A stretch of DNA of 64,000 nt, taken from the IMG/VR virus record IMGVR_UViG_3300046665_000434, positions 90,262-154,261 of that record; one strand, 5' to 3'. The notes beneath the pieces are model-generated. The model ran no database searches, had not been told where the DNA came from, and saw nothing but the letters and a program-made list of their open reading frames with translations. The position numbers were made by a program, and so were the translations under genes. How positions within the stretch are numbered: the stretch's first letter is position 1; the number at the start of each line of letters is the position of its first letter. Of this stretch, positions 2,921 through 10,352 are shown in pieces. The DNA comes from a virus.

Positions 2921-4252
2921 CTACTTCTTCTCTTCTTTCTTTTCAGCTTTCTTGAAGATGGTGTAACACTCGACGTTGGTTCTGAGGATACGAACACCGC
3001 AACGTTGGAAGTTGTCGCACTCTTGGGCGATTTCATTGTAACCCATCGACATCTTCATGAACGCATTGATAACGTACTTATAGCCTGCGTATTTCGAGAT
3101 GCGTTTCTTGTAAGTGGCAAGCGCCACATTACGTGCGGCTTTCCAGTCGTCTTTCCGCTGCTGCTCGTTGGCGCTAAGGTGTTCGCCCCGAAGATTCGCC
3201 AGATCTGCACTGCCCAGACTCCAGCCGTATTCCCTGTCAGTTTCTCTCAAAATTTTATCGAGAGTATCACCTTCGGTCTTGGTGGCCTTGTCCAAGATCT
3301 GTTGGTAACGCTGACTCATGCCGGTGAATCTGCCAATGGTGGCCTGGATCGAATCGTTGATCGTCTTCTGCTCGAACGAGAAGGCTTCCAGCGCATTGAC
3401 TGCCTCGACCAGATCCTTGATTTCCATCGGAGCAGTTTCGGTGACTTGGTGCGTACGATTATGCCGCTTGACGGACAGGGCGAAATGCTGCTTGGGATCG
3501 AACACCGCTTTACTGTCTTCGATGAACGGCATCTCGGTGACCCGGTTAAAACCGATCTCGTGATAAATATCTTCAGAGCTAGTCACGCCCTCGAGAGTCG
3601 CAGGATCAAGGCGAATAACGTCTTCCTGGATCTTGGACAGTTTACGCGTGGTGTCTTGGATATGGCGAACGGCTTCATGGATGTCAGACATCTTGATGGC
3701 GAACTTACCACTGGCGGTGAATCCGTATCCAGGAGCCGCCATCGAGAACGCTCTGACCTTCTTGTCAGACAGTGTCGGAATGATCTCTTTGATCGCGCGC
3801 AGATCGTCAGCGACTTTAGCAGCGTGGTGGATACGCATGCCTAGCAGCTTTCTGAGGCCCTCCATGAACTTTGCAGCAGCTTGCTTGATCCATTCCCAGA
3901 TCTTGGCGAGGAAGCTTTTCTGCTTATCCTCAGCTTCGGTAGAGTAATCCGACGCCGACTCGAACGAAGGCGCAATCAGACTGATCGGCAGATGTGCGAT
4001 ACCGGCAGACTGGATCAGCGCACCTACCGCTACCTCGTACTGTTTAGCAGTCGCCGCAGTAGCTTCTATCGACAAGAAACGCAGAGACAGACTCTCCATG
4101 CTTTCGACGAAGGAGATTGCTCTTACCAAGTCATGACCATGCTGACGGATTGCATGGACAGCCTCTTGGGAATACTCGATTGGAACTAGTACTGGCACCG
4201 CACCGGATTCCACGGCATAGCCCATCAATAGGTTATCTTCACGCATGATCAT
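2921..4252 (-). CDS. phiKZ-type internal head / inner-body protein
   Basis: N-terminus rich in S/A-x-E protease motifs (AVE, SQE, SME, SIE, SFE, STE) followed by the KIWEWIKQ amphipathic helix typical of this family. Confidence 0.7.
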   Translation of the reverse strand: MIMREDNLLMGYAVESGAVPVLVPIEYSQEAVHAIRQHGHDLVRAISFVESMESLSLRFLSIEATAATAKQYEVAVGALIQSAGIAHLPISLIAPSFESASDYSTEAEDKQKSFLAKIWEWIKQAAAKFMEGLRKLLGMRIHHAAKVADDLRAIKEIIPTLSDKKVRAFSMAAPGYGFTASGKFAIKMSDIHEAVRHIQDTTRKLSKIQEDVIRLDPATLEGVTSSEDIYHEIGFNRVTEMPFIEDSKAVFDPKQHFALSVKRHNRTHQVTETAPMEIKDLVEAVNALEAFSFEQKTINDSIQATIGRFTGMSQRYQQILDKATKTEGDTLDKILRETDREYGWSLGSADLANLRGEHLSANEQQRKDDWKAARNVALATYKKRISKYAGYKYVINAFMKMSMGYNEIAQECDNFQRCGVRILRTNVECYTIFKKAEKKEEKK

Positions 4253-4645: not shown

Positions 4646-5443
4646 ATGCTAGCGGTCATTATTAAAGGCAATCCGAAGTTCATCAACACTCCGCTAGCTA
4701 AGTCGTACTATAGTGATATCGAGACGTTTCTAAAATCTCTCGGTTACACAGTTGAGTTTAATGCCGGTAAAGACTACACTCGTCCTAGACAGGATGCGGA
4801 TCTCTATATCGGACATTCTCGTGGTGCCGACCGTTATGACTTCATGGACGCTAAGAACAAAAGCAAGTTCTTGAAGTTCGGTGTCCTTGAAGGCTATATC
4901 CATCCGGTAGATGCCGCGTGGCAGAAAGTAACGAAGCCTGGAACCGGCGTTCCCCCAAACGAACACTTCATCTTCACTGATGAGCAGAAAGAAGCTATCC
5001 GAAGTAAAACGGCCGAGCTCTCTACGGAATCGAACTCAACTGTCGATACGTTGATTGCTAACGCCATGAAAGAAAAGTTCCTTGGCCCAGCCTCTCTTAA
5101 TAAACACATGGAGAATCTGGTTGTCATCGAGTCTAATGGTAAACCTGTAGGCTTCTATATACCGTTCCAAGAAAAGGACGGTGTCTGGCGTACGGGATCG
5201 ATTTACCTGCTACCTGAATATCGTGGACGTGGGATCGCTAAAGACGTGATCGCCAAGTTCGCGAAAGAGCGGAGAGTAAGGGCATGGATAGAGCGTGGAA
5301 ATACAGCCAGCGTTCGGGCCTTTACTGCGGCAGGGTTGGCGGGGACTGGACGACGCTTGCTGGTGAACGGTAAGCACTTTGATGAGTACGTTACTCTTGA
5401 AGAATCGTTAGAGCGCAATACGCGTATCCTGAGCTGGGACTAA
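4646..5443 (+). CDS. Two-domain protein: GHSRG hydrolase-like domain + GNAT acetyltransferase
   Basis: YIGHSRG; GNAT motif A IYLLPEYRGRGIAK and motif B NTASVRAF; STE linker and SLE..W tail. Confidence 0.7.
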   Translation: MLAVIIKGNPKFINTPLAKSYYSDIETFLKSLGYTVEFNAGKDYTRPRQDADLYIGHSRGADRYDFMDAKNKSKFLKFGVLEGYIHPVDAAWQKVTKPGTGVPPNEHFIFTDEQKEAIRSKTAELSTESNSTVDTLIANAMKEKFLGPASLNKHMENLVVIESNGKPVGFYIPFQEKDGVWRTGSIYLLPEYRGRGIAKDVIAKFAKERRVRAWIERGNTASVRAFTAAGLAGTGRRLLVNGKHFDEYVTLEESLERNTRILSWD

Positions 5444-5449
5444 TCATTA

Positions 5450-5734
5450 TATGCAAGCACCGGGTAGGGTGTAAGCAGACGGTGGCGGTTACGCCTGATC
5501 GAGTGACACACTCCTCGGTTAGGTAACCAGTGGTCAGGATGTCCTCTCTGACCTAAGACGTTATTGCTGTGGGTGCGATAACGTCTGCTGAAGCGAATGC
5601 TCAGCCTACAACGTTTGGTAGCGCGGGGACATGCCAAACGTTGTGGGGTGGACATACATACCCCAGTGTGACCACTACCGTACATCCCTCGATCCTTCCA
5701 CTCCTAGGGATCGAGGGATGTACCTTTCTTTATG
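5450..5734 (+). ncRNA. Putative structured non-coding RNA A
   Basis: No credible ORF; five hairpins inside a closing helix 5479-5485/5675-5681; TATG at 5450; 15-bp terminator stem 5681-5722. Confidence 0.6.
5681..5731 (+). terminator. Intrinsic terminator
   Basis: TACATCCCTCGATCC / GGATCGAGGGATGTA perfect stem followed by CCTTTCTTT. Confidence 0.75.
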
Positions 5735-5749
5735 CCGCATCCATACTTT

Positions 5750-5789
5750 TTCAATGAAATTATCTACAGTCATACATAACGGAGGTGAC
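5750..5789 (+). promoter_or_regulatory. Putative phage (early) promoter, copy 1
   Basis: 32/40 identical to 22341-22380; both lie at the head of + strand accessory gene clusters. Confidence 0.65.
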
Positions 5790-5802
5790 TAAACAAACCA
5801 AT

Positions 5803-5815
5803 GTCCGAGGAGGAC
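5803..5815 (+). promoter_or_regulatory. SD-containing hairpin (GTCC-GAGGA-GGAC variant)
   Basis: One of ten copies; compensatory stem variant. Confidence 0.7.
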
Positions 5816-5817
5816 TC

Positions 5818-6159
5818 ATGTCGTATTCTAATGCATTGAAAATCGGTGGTGTGCTGGTATTGGCTGCAATCGGTGTCGTAGCTGCTGTCAAAGCGTACCA
5901 CGAGAAAGAAGCCGCTTCTGAAGAGAAGCTAAAACCTCTCCAGACACTGGCCATGAAAGTAATGCTCAATAAACTCCTGGTGGAGATCAGCGAGCTGATC
6001 GTATCCAAACAGGTGATGCCGGATGACGATCTGTTTATCAGAGTCAGGGTGTTCAGGGATCTCGCCAAGGCCGACTATGTAGATCTCAGCCATCTTGACC
6101 TGTGTATGCTGGTTCAGGAAGCGCAGGGCATACTGTCCACACTCAAATCCATGCCTTAA
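5818..6159 (+). CDS. Small N-terminally membrane-anchored protein (paralog of 7203..7553)
   Basis: ATG 5818 right after the SD hairpin; hydrophobic N-terminus LKIGGVLVLAAIGVVAAVKAY. Confidence 0.75.
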   Translation: MSYSNALKIGGVLVLAAIGVVAAVKAYHEKEAASEEKLKPLQTLAMKVMLNKLLVEISELIVSKQVMPDDDLFIRVRVFRDLAKADYVDLSHLDLCMLVQEAQGILSTLKSMP

Positions 6160-7553: not shown

Positions 7554-7555
7554 TA

Positions 7556-7597
7556 TACAGGAGAGGCGTAAGCCTCTCCTGTACTCTTCTTTTTTTT
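7556..7597 (+). terminator. Intrinsic terminator
   Basis: TACAGGAGAGGC-GTAA-GCCTCTCCTGTA plus T tract. Confidence 0.85.
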
Positions 7598-7627
7598 GTT
7601 GTAATAGCTTACATTTGGTTTCAATAC

Positions 7628-7933
7628 TATGTAGAAGTACCCGTGGCTAATAGCCATTACAGTACAGCCATGCTCTTTAACAACTCGGTGTCAGTCACAG
7701 TAAGTGCTATCTCAGTACAGCTCCCTGATAATGACTCTCTAGCATAGCGGGTATCCAGCCCTGCATCTTAGCGCCTTTCTGGAACGATAAGCGCGCTCCA
7801 TTCGATCATGTACGAAATATCAAGTCGTTGAGCAGTAAGGGCGCTGCGCTCTGGCGATACACGACAAGGGTTGAGTCGGGTCTTTGGAAGAAACAAAGAA
7901 GTCATACGGCCCGGCCTTGCGCCGGGCTTTATG
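7628..7933 (+). ncRNA. Putative structured non-coding RNA B
   Basis: Lies between two terminators; TATG at 7628; nested long-range helices 7638-43/7748-53, 7756-62/7867-73, 7770-78/7837-45. Confidence 0.45.
7903..7933 (+). terminator. CATA..TATG-flanked hairpin terminator
   Basis: GCCCGGC-CTTGC-GCCGGGC-TTTATG. Confidence 0.65.
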
Positions 7934-7991
7934 CTGTATGTAAGTATTTATAATGACGAAGTACTTATGAACATCAGTGTAGACTTCCGCC

Positions 7992-9867: not shown

Positions 9868-9890
9868 ATAATTACATGATGTCACCGTGA

Positions 9891-10288
9891 TATGTAAAAG
9901 GTCTATCACGGATCAGTTACCTCCTTTGGGGAGCGGTGTTGTAATTCCCCGTCTGGCCGACAACCGCTCTCACTTTTTATTCCTTGGGATCGTATTACGG
10001 TTCCTCAAGAACCCCGCCGCGTAGCGTATTTGCCCGCGCGCGGCTAGGTACTGCACCGCCTCACCCTATAGGTTGCAGTTACAGCCAGCGAAGGCTGGTG
10101 GACCTCGTATAGCGCTGTCGAATGCTGTTAGTTAATGGGGTGGTCTCTCACACTGAGCCGCCAGTTGTCGGTAGGCCGGGTTAAGGCTTGGTCGCCCAGT
10201 TCACCTTGACCTGATCTTGGTGTTCTACCTGAATCTATCGACAAGTCCTGCCTCTCCTGCCTCCTTAGGGAGGTGGGGGAGTTTTATG
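9891..10288 (+). ncRNA. Putative structured non-coding RNA C
   Basis: ~400 nt without a credible ORF; at least seven hairpins; end-to-end helix GATCAG 9911-16/CTGATC 10211-16; TATG at 9891; terminator 10252-10285. Confidence 0.6.
10252..10288 (+). terminator. Intrinsic terminator
   Basis: CTCTCCTGCCTCC-TTAG-GGAGGTGGGGGAG-TTTT. Confidence 0.7.
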
Positions 10289-10352
10289 CTGTTAGGGATA
10301 TGGTATGCAGTGGTAGCCTCCATTGTACCGCAACACTTTAAAGGACTGTCAC

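What the first reader, a model, noticed from the sequence alone, without database searches (positions are those of the whole stretch)
5450..5734. RNA A: five-arm multibranch fold closed by a long-range helix
Seen: ACGGTGG 5479-85 pairs with CTACCGT 5675-81 (extendable to 10 of 11 bp). It encloses GGTTAC 5487-92/GTAACC 5523-28 with inner CCTGATCGAG/CTCGGTTAGG; GGTCAG 5532-37/CTGACC 5548-53; a 12-bp AGACGTTATTGC 5556-67/GCGATAACGTCT 5575-86; GCTGA/TCAGC 5587-5605; and a 13-bp ACAACGTTTGGTA 5608-20/TGCCAAACGTTGT 5632-44. The stem mismatches read as G-U on the + strand, which supports an RNA structure and its strand. The arms abut with almost no spacer.
Basis: seen in the sequence. Interest (0 to 1): 0.7.

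Follow-up and report, generated by a model that had tools for sequence, protein, structure and literature searches.

The report
Kissing-loop RNA gene of jumbo phages
The gap after an acetyltransferase gene in this uncultured giant (phiKZ-like) phage holds a real, uncatalogued gene for a folded RNA of about 280 bases; 16 related phages keep its five hairpins and one loop-to-loop contact through matching mutations, but its job is still unknown.

Summary
The + strand folds far better than chance (-145 kcal/mol, z -8.8). The - strand is 23 kcal/mol weaker, as expected if the wobble pairs are G-U in RNA.

I found 16 distinct homologues in uncultured phiKZ-like phage contigs. Each lies after the same esterase-like/GNAT gene. 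Arms P2, P3, P4 and P6 are backed by many compensatory changes, and P5 is present in all 16.

The "long-range closing helix" is not conserved and scores no better than shuffled sequence. The fold is tied instead by a 6-7 bp kissing contact between the P3 and P6 loops, and this contact covaries.

The unit starts at an invariant TATG, the phiKZ late-promoter start motif. It ends in a phiKZ-type terminator (hairpin + TTTATGCCG). It holds no conserved ORF, and the next gene has its own promoter motif. There is no Rfam match and no copy in nine cultured chimalliviruses.

Function is unknown. My best guess is a stand-alone RNA that acts through its 3D fold, as a protein-binding scaffold or decoy. 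Rivals are an anti-Shine-Dalgarno regulator and a self-assembling RNA.

This scan has already reported the same family on other genomes (e1-5392801, e1-5402481).

The parts
5450..5453 (+). TATG start motif; predicted +1 is G5453
   Evidence: TATG is invariant in all 15 homologues inspected. phiKZ late promoters are 5'-TATG-3' with the G as the transcription start (PMC4666361). In clade 3 an AAGTTAC motif lies about 24 nt upstream, like the phiKZ middle-promoter motif. Transcription itself was not shown.
5452..5477 (+). P1, the 5' hairpin (UGC/GCA plus GCACC/GGUGU) with a GGGUAG loop
   Evidence: It appears in the minimum-energy fold. Relatives carry a hairpin with a GGG(C/U) loop at the same place, and L003 has CAUC/GAUG against CACC/GGUG in the window. 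Clade L024/L026 lacks it.
5487..5528 (+). P2, a long hairpin (inner stem 5495-5504/5513-5522) whose apical loop holds ACACUCC
   Evidence: 10 consensus pairs are 97.5% paired, and 9 of them have compensatory changes.
5532..5553 (+). P3 hairpin; loop nucleotides 5540-5546 (UGUCCUC) form one side of the kissing contact
   Evidence: All 7 pairs have compensatory changes.
5556..5586 (+). P4, a 12-bp hairpin whose loop holds the conserved GGG(U/C)
   Evidence: Of 11 consensus pairs, 9 have compensatory changes.
5587..5605 (+). P5, a short hairpin whose 3' strand is part of the conserved GCNCAGCC motif
   Evidence: A hairpin ending in (C/U)AGC is present in all 16 members. Covariation is seen only between L024, L026 and L025, and was judged by eye.
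5606..5646 (+). P6, a 15-bp hairpin; loop nucleotides 5625-5631 (GGGGACA) form the other side of the kissing contact
   Evidence: 22 pairs including the extension, 18 of them with compensatory changes.
5647..5679 (+). 3' domain holding the conserved CCNAGUGUG (5662-5670) and a variable linker; its fold is unresolved
   Evidence: The motif is invariant in clades 1-2. The alternative pairings GGGGU/ACCCC and CAUAC/GUGUG were not resolved.
5680..5740 (+). Terminator: an 18-bp hairpin (5680-5723), then CUUUCUUUAU and TTTATGCCGCAT
   Evidence: The terminator scan found it. Hairpin + TTTATGC(C/T)G recurs at least 9 times in this genome. It matches the published phiKZ terminator motif ...YTTATKYYGT (PMC10914365).
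5765..5777 (+). TACAGTCATACAT, a promoter-like motif of the downstream gene; it is not part of the RNA and marks its independence
   Evidence: The 13-mer TACAGTCATACAT occurs 5 times in the genome and its 10-nt core AGTCATACAT 7 times, most with an AT-rich lead-in ahead of genes. It is conserved downstream of the RNA in relatives.

Best explanation
This is a stand-alone gene for a non-coding RNA of about 280 nt, running from G5453 to about 5733 on the + strand. It belongs to an uncatalogued family found only in a group of uncultured phiKZ-like jumbo phages. The phage's own RNA polymerase most likely starts it at a TATG start motif and stops it at a phiKZ-type hairpin terminator. The same sequence would also form the 3' end of read-through acetyltransferase mRNA. 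The RNA folds into a 5' hairpin followed by five abutting hairpins, P2 to P6. The P3 and P6 loops pair over 6-7 bp and lock the fold into a compact shape. What selection keeps is the shape plus a few unpaired motifs (ACC, GGG loops, GCNCAGCC, CCNAGUGUG). I therefore infer that it works in trans through its three-dimensional fold, most likely as a binding platform or decoy for a phage or host protein during middle or late infection. Shown: conservation, helices, the kissing contact, absence of an ORF, and the boundary motifs. Inferred: transcription, trans action, and a protein partner.
For: The fold is stable and strand-asymmetric. There are 16 distinct homologues in the same genomic place. 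Helix covariation with shuffle and slide controls is strong. The kissing helix is 95.5% paired in clades 1-2, with 4 of 7 pairs doubly changed and slid controls at 37-57%. Loops of the same RNA pair better than loops swapped between RNAs in all of 20,000 permutations. Variant pairs include GUCCUC/GAGGAC, AUCCUC/GAGGAU, GCUCUC/GAGAGC, GUUCCC/GGGAAC, AUUCCC/GGGAAU and CCCCGU/ACGGGG. No ORF is conserved in strand, frame or length. TATG is invariant at the 5' edge and is the phiKZ late-promoter start (PMC4666361). The terminator matches the phiKZ motif. A separate promoter-like motif lies between the terminator and the next gene. The phage is phiKZ-like by its core genes.
Against: There are no expression data, because every member comes from a metagenome. 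No terminator separates the acetyltransferase gene from the RNA, so the RNA could exist only as a 3'UTR or a processed piece of one. No partner has been identified. The neighbouring genes give no RNA-related clue. RNA polymerase genes were not found on this 62%-complete contig with Pfam models, so the promoter assignment rests on motif likeness alone. The sequences are related to each other, so the shuffle statistics overstate independence.
Confidence: 0.55

Rival explanations
1. The RNA is an anti-Shine-Dalgarno regulator. Its C/U-rich loops would pair with the purine-rich ribosome-binding sites of phage mRNAs and block or tune their translation. The main targets would be the repeated SD hairpin G(A/T)CC-GAGGA-GG(T/A)C.
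For: Twelve SD hairpins of this kind precede start codons in the genome, three of them just downstream of the RNA. Window 5511-5519 (CTCCTCGGT) is complementary over 9 nt to the commonest of them. Relatives show 5-8 nt matches. A CUCC-like motif recurs in the P2 loop of most members.
Against: In the window the 9-mer lies almost wholly inside the stable P2 stem. In relatives the best match moves between P2 and P3 and is often only 5-6 nt of generic CUCCU. The most anti-SD-like loop (L3) is already paired to L6. L3 changes to GCUCUC, GUUCCC and AUUCCC while the SD hairpins of those phages stay GAGGA. Simple antisense pairing does not need such an elaborate conserved fold.
Confidence: 0.15
2. The RNA self-assembles. 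The L3-L6 pairing would form between molecules, hand in hand, to build rings or cages. This is how phi29 pRNA works, and it is how kissing loops of ROOL and GOLLD turned out to be quaternary contacts.
For: L3 and L6 are complementary, are not palindromic, and covary. P3 (6-7 bp) and P6 (13-15 bp) differ greatly in length, which makes an intramolecular contact less obvious. Covarying kissing loops of ROOL and GOLLD proved to be intermolecular (PMC12286853).
Against: Nothing in the sequence separates intra- from intermolecular pairing. The RNA is much smaller than ROOL or GOLLD. There is no Rfam match to pRNA, ROOL or GOLLD.
Confidence: 0.12
3. It is only a cis element: a structured 3'UTR and terminator cluster that protects the acetyltransferase mRNA from 3' exonucleases, with no life of its own.
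For: The RNA begins 5 nt after the GNAT stop codon with no terminator in between. It is always downstream of that gene, or one gene further.
Against: A stabiliser needs no conserved unpaired motifs and no covarying loop-loop contact. In clade 3 a different gene precedes the RNA and a middle-promoter-like motif is present. The TATG is invariant.
Confidence: 0.08
4. It is a riboswitch or other leader that controls the downstream small genes by conditional termination.
For: A complex fold is followed directly by a terminator and lies upstream of genes on the same strand.
Against: The terminator is an 18-bp perfect hairpin, and I found no evident antiterminator. A separate promoter-like motif, repeated elsewhere in the genome, lies between the terminator and the gene. 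The downstream genes differ between clades.
Confidence: 0.03
5. It is a DNA-level element, such as an origin, a packaging site or a set of protein-binding palindromes, and not an RNA.
For: Several arms are long, near-perfect inverted repeats.
Against: The + strand is 23 kcal/mol more stable than the - strand. Many family pairs are G-U, which would be A-C on the other strand. The loop-loop covariation has no meaning in duplex DNA.
Confidence: 0.02

Closest known systems
sRNA candidates of chimalliviruses phiKZ and 201phi2-1 (ONT-cappable-seq; PMC10914365, PMC11512511)
   Same: They are short non-coding transcription units of phiKZ-like phages. They are bounded by phage promoters and by the conserved hairpin-TTAT terminator motif, some are intergenic, and their function is unknown.
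   Different: The described ones are under 250 nt and mostly derive from 5'UTRs. My covariance model finds nothing in phiKZ, 201phi2-1, PhiPA3, Psa21, pPa_SNUABM_DT01, FLC9, RSL2, LucasX or Xoo-sp14. None of them is described with a covarying kissing contact.
ROOL (RF03087) and GOLLD (RF02032) ornate phage RNAs (PMC12286853)
   Same: They are phage-encoded, non-coding and elaborately folded. They have covarying kissing loops and an unknown function.
   Different: They are 2-3 times larger and are often next to tRNA islands. There is no Rfam match here and no tRNA in the window. Oligomerisation is untested here.
phi29 pRNA (packaging RNA)
   Same: One RNA carries two mutually complementary, non-palindromic hairpin loops that covary among related phages.
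   Different: pRNA belongs to small phi29-like podoviruses, has a three-way junction and 4-nt loop pairs, and binds the portal. There is no Rfam hit here and no evidence of any link to packaging.
C-rich-loop anti-SD sRNAs (S. aureus RNAIII/RsaE type, 6C RNA)
   Same: They have several hairpins with C/U-rich loop motifs that are complementary to Shine-Dalgarno sequences.
   Different: Here the best anti-SD loop is occupied by an internal partner and drifts away from the anti-SD sequence. The other candidate is largely buried in a stem.

Membership tests
Any Rfam 15 family | Covariance-model match at or near the gathering score | tested here: not met
   The whole window gave no match at gathering thresholds. 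At E<=10 on 5300-5900 there were only three chance-level hits of 15-18 bits, against cut-offs of 50-90.
phiKZ-type transcription unit | TATG motif at the transcript start, with G as +1 | tested here: met
   TATG lies at 5450-5453 and is invariant in 15 homologues. The motif definition is from PMC4666361. This is a sequence match only, and transcription was not shown.
phiKZ-type transcription unit | Intrinsic terminator: G+C-rich hairpin followed by YTTATKYYGT | tested here: met
   The hairpin is at 5680-5723 and TTTATGCCGC at 5729-5738. The same motif follows at least 9 hairpins in the genome. The motif definition is from PMC10914365.
phiKZ-type transcription unit | The phage encodes split multisubunit RNA polymerases | tested here: inconclusive
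   Pfam Rpb2 and Rpb1 domain models find nothing on the 62%-complete contig. These enzymes are highly diverged. The core genes place the phage among about 290 phiKZ-like phages.
ROOL / GOLLD ornate phage RNAs | Match to RF03087 or RF02032, and length above 500 nt | tested here: not met
   There is no Rfam match, and the RNA is about 280 nt.
ROOL / GOLLD ornate phage RNAs | RNA-only homo-oligomeric assembly | not testable with these tools
   This needs SEC, mass photometry or cryo-EM of the transcript.
phi29 pRNA | Two complementary loops in one RNA that covary | tested here: met
   
phi29 pRNA | Sequence and structure match to the pRNA family, and a phi29-like phage context | tested here: not met
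   There is no Rfam hit, and the host genome is a phiKZ-like jumbo phage.
Riboswitch / transcription-attenuating leader | Lies in the 5'UTR of the regulated gene with no promoter in between | tested here: not met
   The repeated promoter-like motif TACAGTCATACAT lies between the terminator and the next gene.
Anti-SD C-rich-loop sRNAs | Accessible C-rich loop motifs complementary to the SD of targets, conserved across relatives | tested here: inconclusive
   The window has a 9-nt complement, but it sits inside the P2 stem. L3 pairs with L6 and drifts from the anti-SD sequence. A CUCC motif is present in most but not all P2 loops.

The most novel reading that the evidence does not exclude
In that case this 280-nt RNA would assemble into RNA-only rings or cages in infected cells. 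It would be a small jumbo-phage counterpart of phi29 pRNA or of the ROOL and GOLLD nanocages, perhaps made late in infection for a role in virion assembly, packaging or sequestration.
Probability: 0.12. Interest if true: 0.85.

Novelty: new variant of a known kind. Interest (0 to 1): 0.6.

Why it matters
Nucleus-forming phiKZ-like phages are models for phage cell biology and are candidates for therapy, yet almost nothing is known about their non-coding RNAs beyond lists of short transcripts. Here is an RNA with a comparative-genomics-grade structure: four covarying helices and a covarying tertiary contact. It is conserved across at least four clades of uncultured relatives, and a second conserved RNA gene lies 2 kb downstream. 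Folds this elaborate usually mark RNAs that bind proteins, catalyse a reaction or self-assemble. The family gives a defined, synthesisable target for structure work and for asking what giant phages use structured RNAs for. It is not a surprise in kind, because orphan ornate RNAs of phages are a known phenomenon. This scan had also already met the family on other genomes.

Tried and rejected
- **Public phage records:** blastn of the region and of 20 kb around it found nothing.
- **Close protein relatives in IMG/VR:** searches with the GNAT gene, the downstream gene, the 443-aa gene and the SNF2 helicase gave nothing. Relatives came only from the large protein collection and the JGI scan.
- **DNA pattern scan of IMG/VR:** it gave 4 true and 5 false hits.
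- **Covariance model on cultured phages:** no hit in nine cultured chimalliviruses. There is no second copy in the phage's own contig.
- **Closing helix:** 5'/3' duplex energies were no better than shuffles in any of 14 members. I rejected it as a family feature.
- **First kissing-loop tests:** the first automatic test failed because minimum-energy folds ate into the loops. The fixed-window version had a high background per sequence. The permutation test and the column-wise count settled the matter.
- **L3 or L6 as an SD or anti-SD mimic:** rejected, because the pair changes to GCUCUC/GAGAGC and GUUCCC/GGGAAC while the SD hairpins of those phages stay GAGGA.
- **tRNA-like, T-loop, sarcin-ricin-loop, SRP and RNase P resemblances:** I considered these by eye and dropped them. 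There is no ARAGORN or Rfam support.
- **Functional link to the neighbouring GNAT protein:** its C-terminal half resembles small-molecule and protein acetyltransferases. Its N-terminal half (phrog_30942, GHSRG motif) has no RNA-related signal. Co-occurrence cannot be told apart from shared descent.
- **RNA polymerase genes:** Pfam models did not detect them on this incomplete contig.

Full report
**Where it is.** The window is the last 64 kb of a 154-kb IMG/VR virus contig that CheckV rates 62% complete. Its major capsid protein and other large core proteins match 244-290 phiKZ-like jumbo phages at 25-40% identity. The best capsid match is Pseudomonas phage pPa_SNUABM_DT01 at 35.6%. The phage is therefore an uncultured, distant member of the phiKZ-like group. 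The finding lies between a 265-aa gene (4646-5443) and a small gene that starts at 5818. The 265-aa gene has a GNAT acetyltransferase C-terminal half and an N-terminal half of unknown function with a GHSRG motif.

**Checking the observation.**
- The + strand of 5444-5740 folds at -145.2 kcal/mol. Shuffles average -97.6, giving z -8.8, and none of 200 shuffles does as well.
- The - strand reaches only -121.8 kcal/mol.
- The two long stems each contain one U-G wobble on the + strand.
- The structure and its strand are real features of the sequence.
- Rfam 15 gives nothing, either at gathering thresholds over the whole window or at E<=10 on the region. There are no tRNA or tmRNA genes in the window.

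**Relatives.** DNA searches of cultured phages and close-relative scans of IMG/VR found nothing.
- The GNAT protein has relatives at 41-69% identity in the large protein collection.
- In nearly every contig I fetched, the gene is followed by an ORF-free gap of 300-385 nt (273 nt in L026, which reaches the contig end). In one clade the gap comes after one extra 168-aa gene.
- The exception is the most distant contig (41% identity), which has no gap.
- The gaps align, with conserved motifs and obvious compensatory changes.
- A DNA pattern scan of IMG/VR and a protein-guided scan of JGI metagenomes added more.
- There are now 16 distinct sequences in four clades: (1) window and L003; (2) L005, L016, L006, L007, L025, L037, L038 and L042; (3) L008, L010, L011 and L022; (4) L024 and L026.
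- A covariance model built from 13 of them scores all members at 102-180 bits.
- The model finds one copy in the phage's own contig.
- It finds nothing in phiKZ, 201phi2-1, PhiPA3, Psa21, pPa_SNUABM_DT01, FLC9, RSL2, LucasX or Xoo-sp14.
- The stand-alone homologues of the N-terminal domain in cultured phages and in more distant metagenome contigs have no such RNA next to them.

**Secondary structure.** RNAalifold on 13 sequences predicts 39 pairs, 34 of them with compensatory double changes.
- Counted with controls, 91.2% of cells pair. After shuffling partners 68.1% pair, and with the partner slid by 1-3 columns 33-43% pair. No shuffle of 500 reaches the observed value on any of the five measures.
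- This covers P2 (9 of 10 pairs doubly changed), P3 (7 of 7) and P6 with its extension (18 of 22).
- P4 aligned separately gives 11 pairs, 9 of them doubly changed.
- P5 is a short hairpin whose 3' strand is the conserved (C/U)AGC. It can be drawn in all 16 members, but its core hardly varies.
- A 5' hairpin with a GGG(C/U) loop is present in clades 1-3 and absent in clade 4.

**The closing helix.** ACGGUGG/CUACCGU exists in the window but is not a family feature.
- Clade 2 has a self-contained 5' hairpin there, and clade 4 lacks the segment altogether.
- In 14 members, the best duplex between the stretch 5' of P2 and the 3' tail is no better than with a shuffled tail (z from -1.25 to +0.9).
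- In the window itself, GGUUAC can pair either with GUAACC (local) or with GUGACC (long range). The minimum-energy fold changes with the flanks supplied.

**A tertiary contact instead.** The P3 loop and the P6 loop are complementary over 5-8 nt in every member, and the pairing changes together:

| Member(s) | P3 loop (L3) | P6 loop (L6) |
|---|---|---|
| window | UGUCCUC | GGGGACA |
| most of clade 2 | GUCCUC | GAGGAC |
| L007 | UAUCCUC | GAGGAUA |
| L025 | UGCUCUC | GAGAGCA |
| L037, L038 | CGCUCUC | GAGAGCG |
| L024 | CGUUCCC | GGGAACG |
| L026 | CAUUCCC | GGGAAUG |
| L008 | UCCUCGA | UCGGGGA |

- Loop pairs from the same RNA average 6.1 Watson-Crick pairs, against 4.1 for pairs taken from different RNAs. 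None of 20,000 permutations reaches the observed total.
- On the model-based alignment of clades 1-2, the seven-pair helix is 95.5% paired. Four pairs carry double changes, and slid controls give 37-57%.
- The sequences are related, so these numbers overstate independence. Even so, the changes occur in separate lineages.
- The fold is closed by a kissing contact that encloses P4 and P5, not by a helix.
- Sequence alone cannot tell whether this contact forms within one molecule or between molecules. In ROOL and GOLLD, covarying kissing loops turned out to be intermolecular (PMC12286853).

**Boundaries.**
- TATG is invariant at the 5' edge of all members. In phiKZ, late promoters are defined by TATG with the G as +1 (PMC4666361).
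- Clade 3 also has AAGTTAC about 24 nt upstream, like the phiKZ middle-promoter motif.
- The 3' end is an 18-bp hairpin followed by CUUUCUUUAUGCCGCAU.
- Hairpin + TTTATGC(C/T)G recurs at least nine times in this genome. It matches the conserved phiKZ terminator motif ...YTTATKYYGT (PMC10914365).
- Twenty-five nt further on lies TACAGTCATACAT with an AT-rich lead-in. The 13-mer occurs five times in the genome and its 10-nt core AGTCATACAT seven times, ahead of genes. It is conserved in relatives, so the next gene has its own promoter-like signal.
- No ORF is conserved. The longest ATG ORF varies from 15 to 87 codons and changes strand and frame between members.
- No terminator separates the GNAT gene from the RNA, so read-through GNAT mRNA would carry the RNA as its 3' end.

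**What it does.** Nothing in the neighbourhood points to a function. The upstream protein looks like an esterase-like domain fused to a small-molecule or protein acetyltransferase. The downstream genes are small, unknown, and differ between clades.

I tested the idea that the C/U-rich loops bind ribosome-binding sites.
- For it: the genome has twelve SD hairpins of the form G(A/T)CC-GAGGA-GG(T/A)C, and window 5511-5519 is complementary to nine nt of the commonest one.
- Against it: that stretch is buried in the P2 stem. In relatives the match is 5-8 nt and moves about. L3 is occupied by L6 and drifts away from the anti-SD sequence, while the SD hairpins of those phages stay the same.

Selection has preserved a whole architecture, a tertiary contact and several unpaired motifs. 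I therefore favour a role that depends on the three-dimensional fold: a protein-binding scaffold or decoy acting in trans (0.55). The rivals are an anti-SD regulator (0.15), a self-assembling RNA (0.12), a mere 3'UTR stabiliser (0.08), a riboswitch or leader (0.03) and a DNA-level element (0.02).

**Novelty.** There is no match in Rfam 15 and none in cultured phages.
- The published phiKZ and 201phi2-1 sRNA candidates are shorter and unrelated by the model.
- It is a new RNA family of a known general kind, orphan ornate RNAs of phages.
- The same family was already reported by follow-up agents of this scan on two other genomes (e1-5392801, e1-5402481). My results were obtained independently before I saw those notes. 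They agree on the hairpins and the kissing contact, and they weaken the RBS-blocking idea of the second note.

Noticed in passing
window 7554-7991: The second structured gap ('RNA B') is also a conserved family. Eight related loci share a TTAC...TATACTATGTA start region, the blocks GCTCTTTTACAA, TCACAGTAAG and CAGCTCCCTGAT, and in most a hairpin + TTTATGC terminator (alignment A9). In the window alone its fold is only modestly better than chance (z -3.0).
   Followed up: partly
window 9868-10330: The third structured gap ('RNA C') has z -3.0. Its only similarity is a 41-nt stretch to L003 7822-7862, and conservation was not established.
   Followed up: partly
window 5803, 6637, 7187, 22393, 23576, 23968, 25177, 25668, 26618, 27021, plus two upstream of the window: A repeated ribosome-binding-site hairpin, G(A/T)CC-G(T)AGGA-GG(T/A)C, lies 0-4 nt before start codons, with 12 copies in the genome. 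The same motif is present in related phages of clades 1-2.
   Followed up: partly
window 5765-5777 and four further full copies in the genome (two more sites share only the 10-nt core): A promoter-like motif, (T)TCAATGAAAACATT-TACAGTCATACAT, precedes genes. It is conserved downstream of the RNA in relatives.
   Followed up: partly
window 4646-5443: The upstream protein is a fusion. Its N-terminal half of about 135 aa has invariant GNPK and GHSRG (GxSxG-like) motifs and matches phrog_30942. That domain is found alone as 201phi2-1 gp429 and PhiPA3 gp373. The C-terminal half is a GNAT domain.
   Followed up: partly
L029 (PhiPA3) 3136-3220: In PhiPA3 the stand-alone homologue of the N-terminal domain is followed by a tRNA-Leu gene at the place where this phage has the RNA.
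   Followed up: no
L033 (Ralstonia phage RSL2) 1501-1959: A tblastn match to the GNAT half falls mostly (about 400 of 460 nt) inside a 680-nt stretch of RSL2 with no annotated gene.
   Followed up: no
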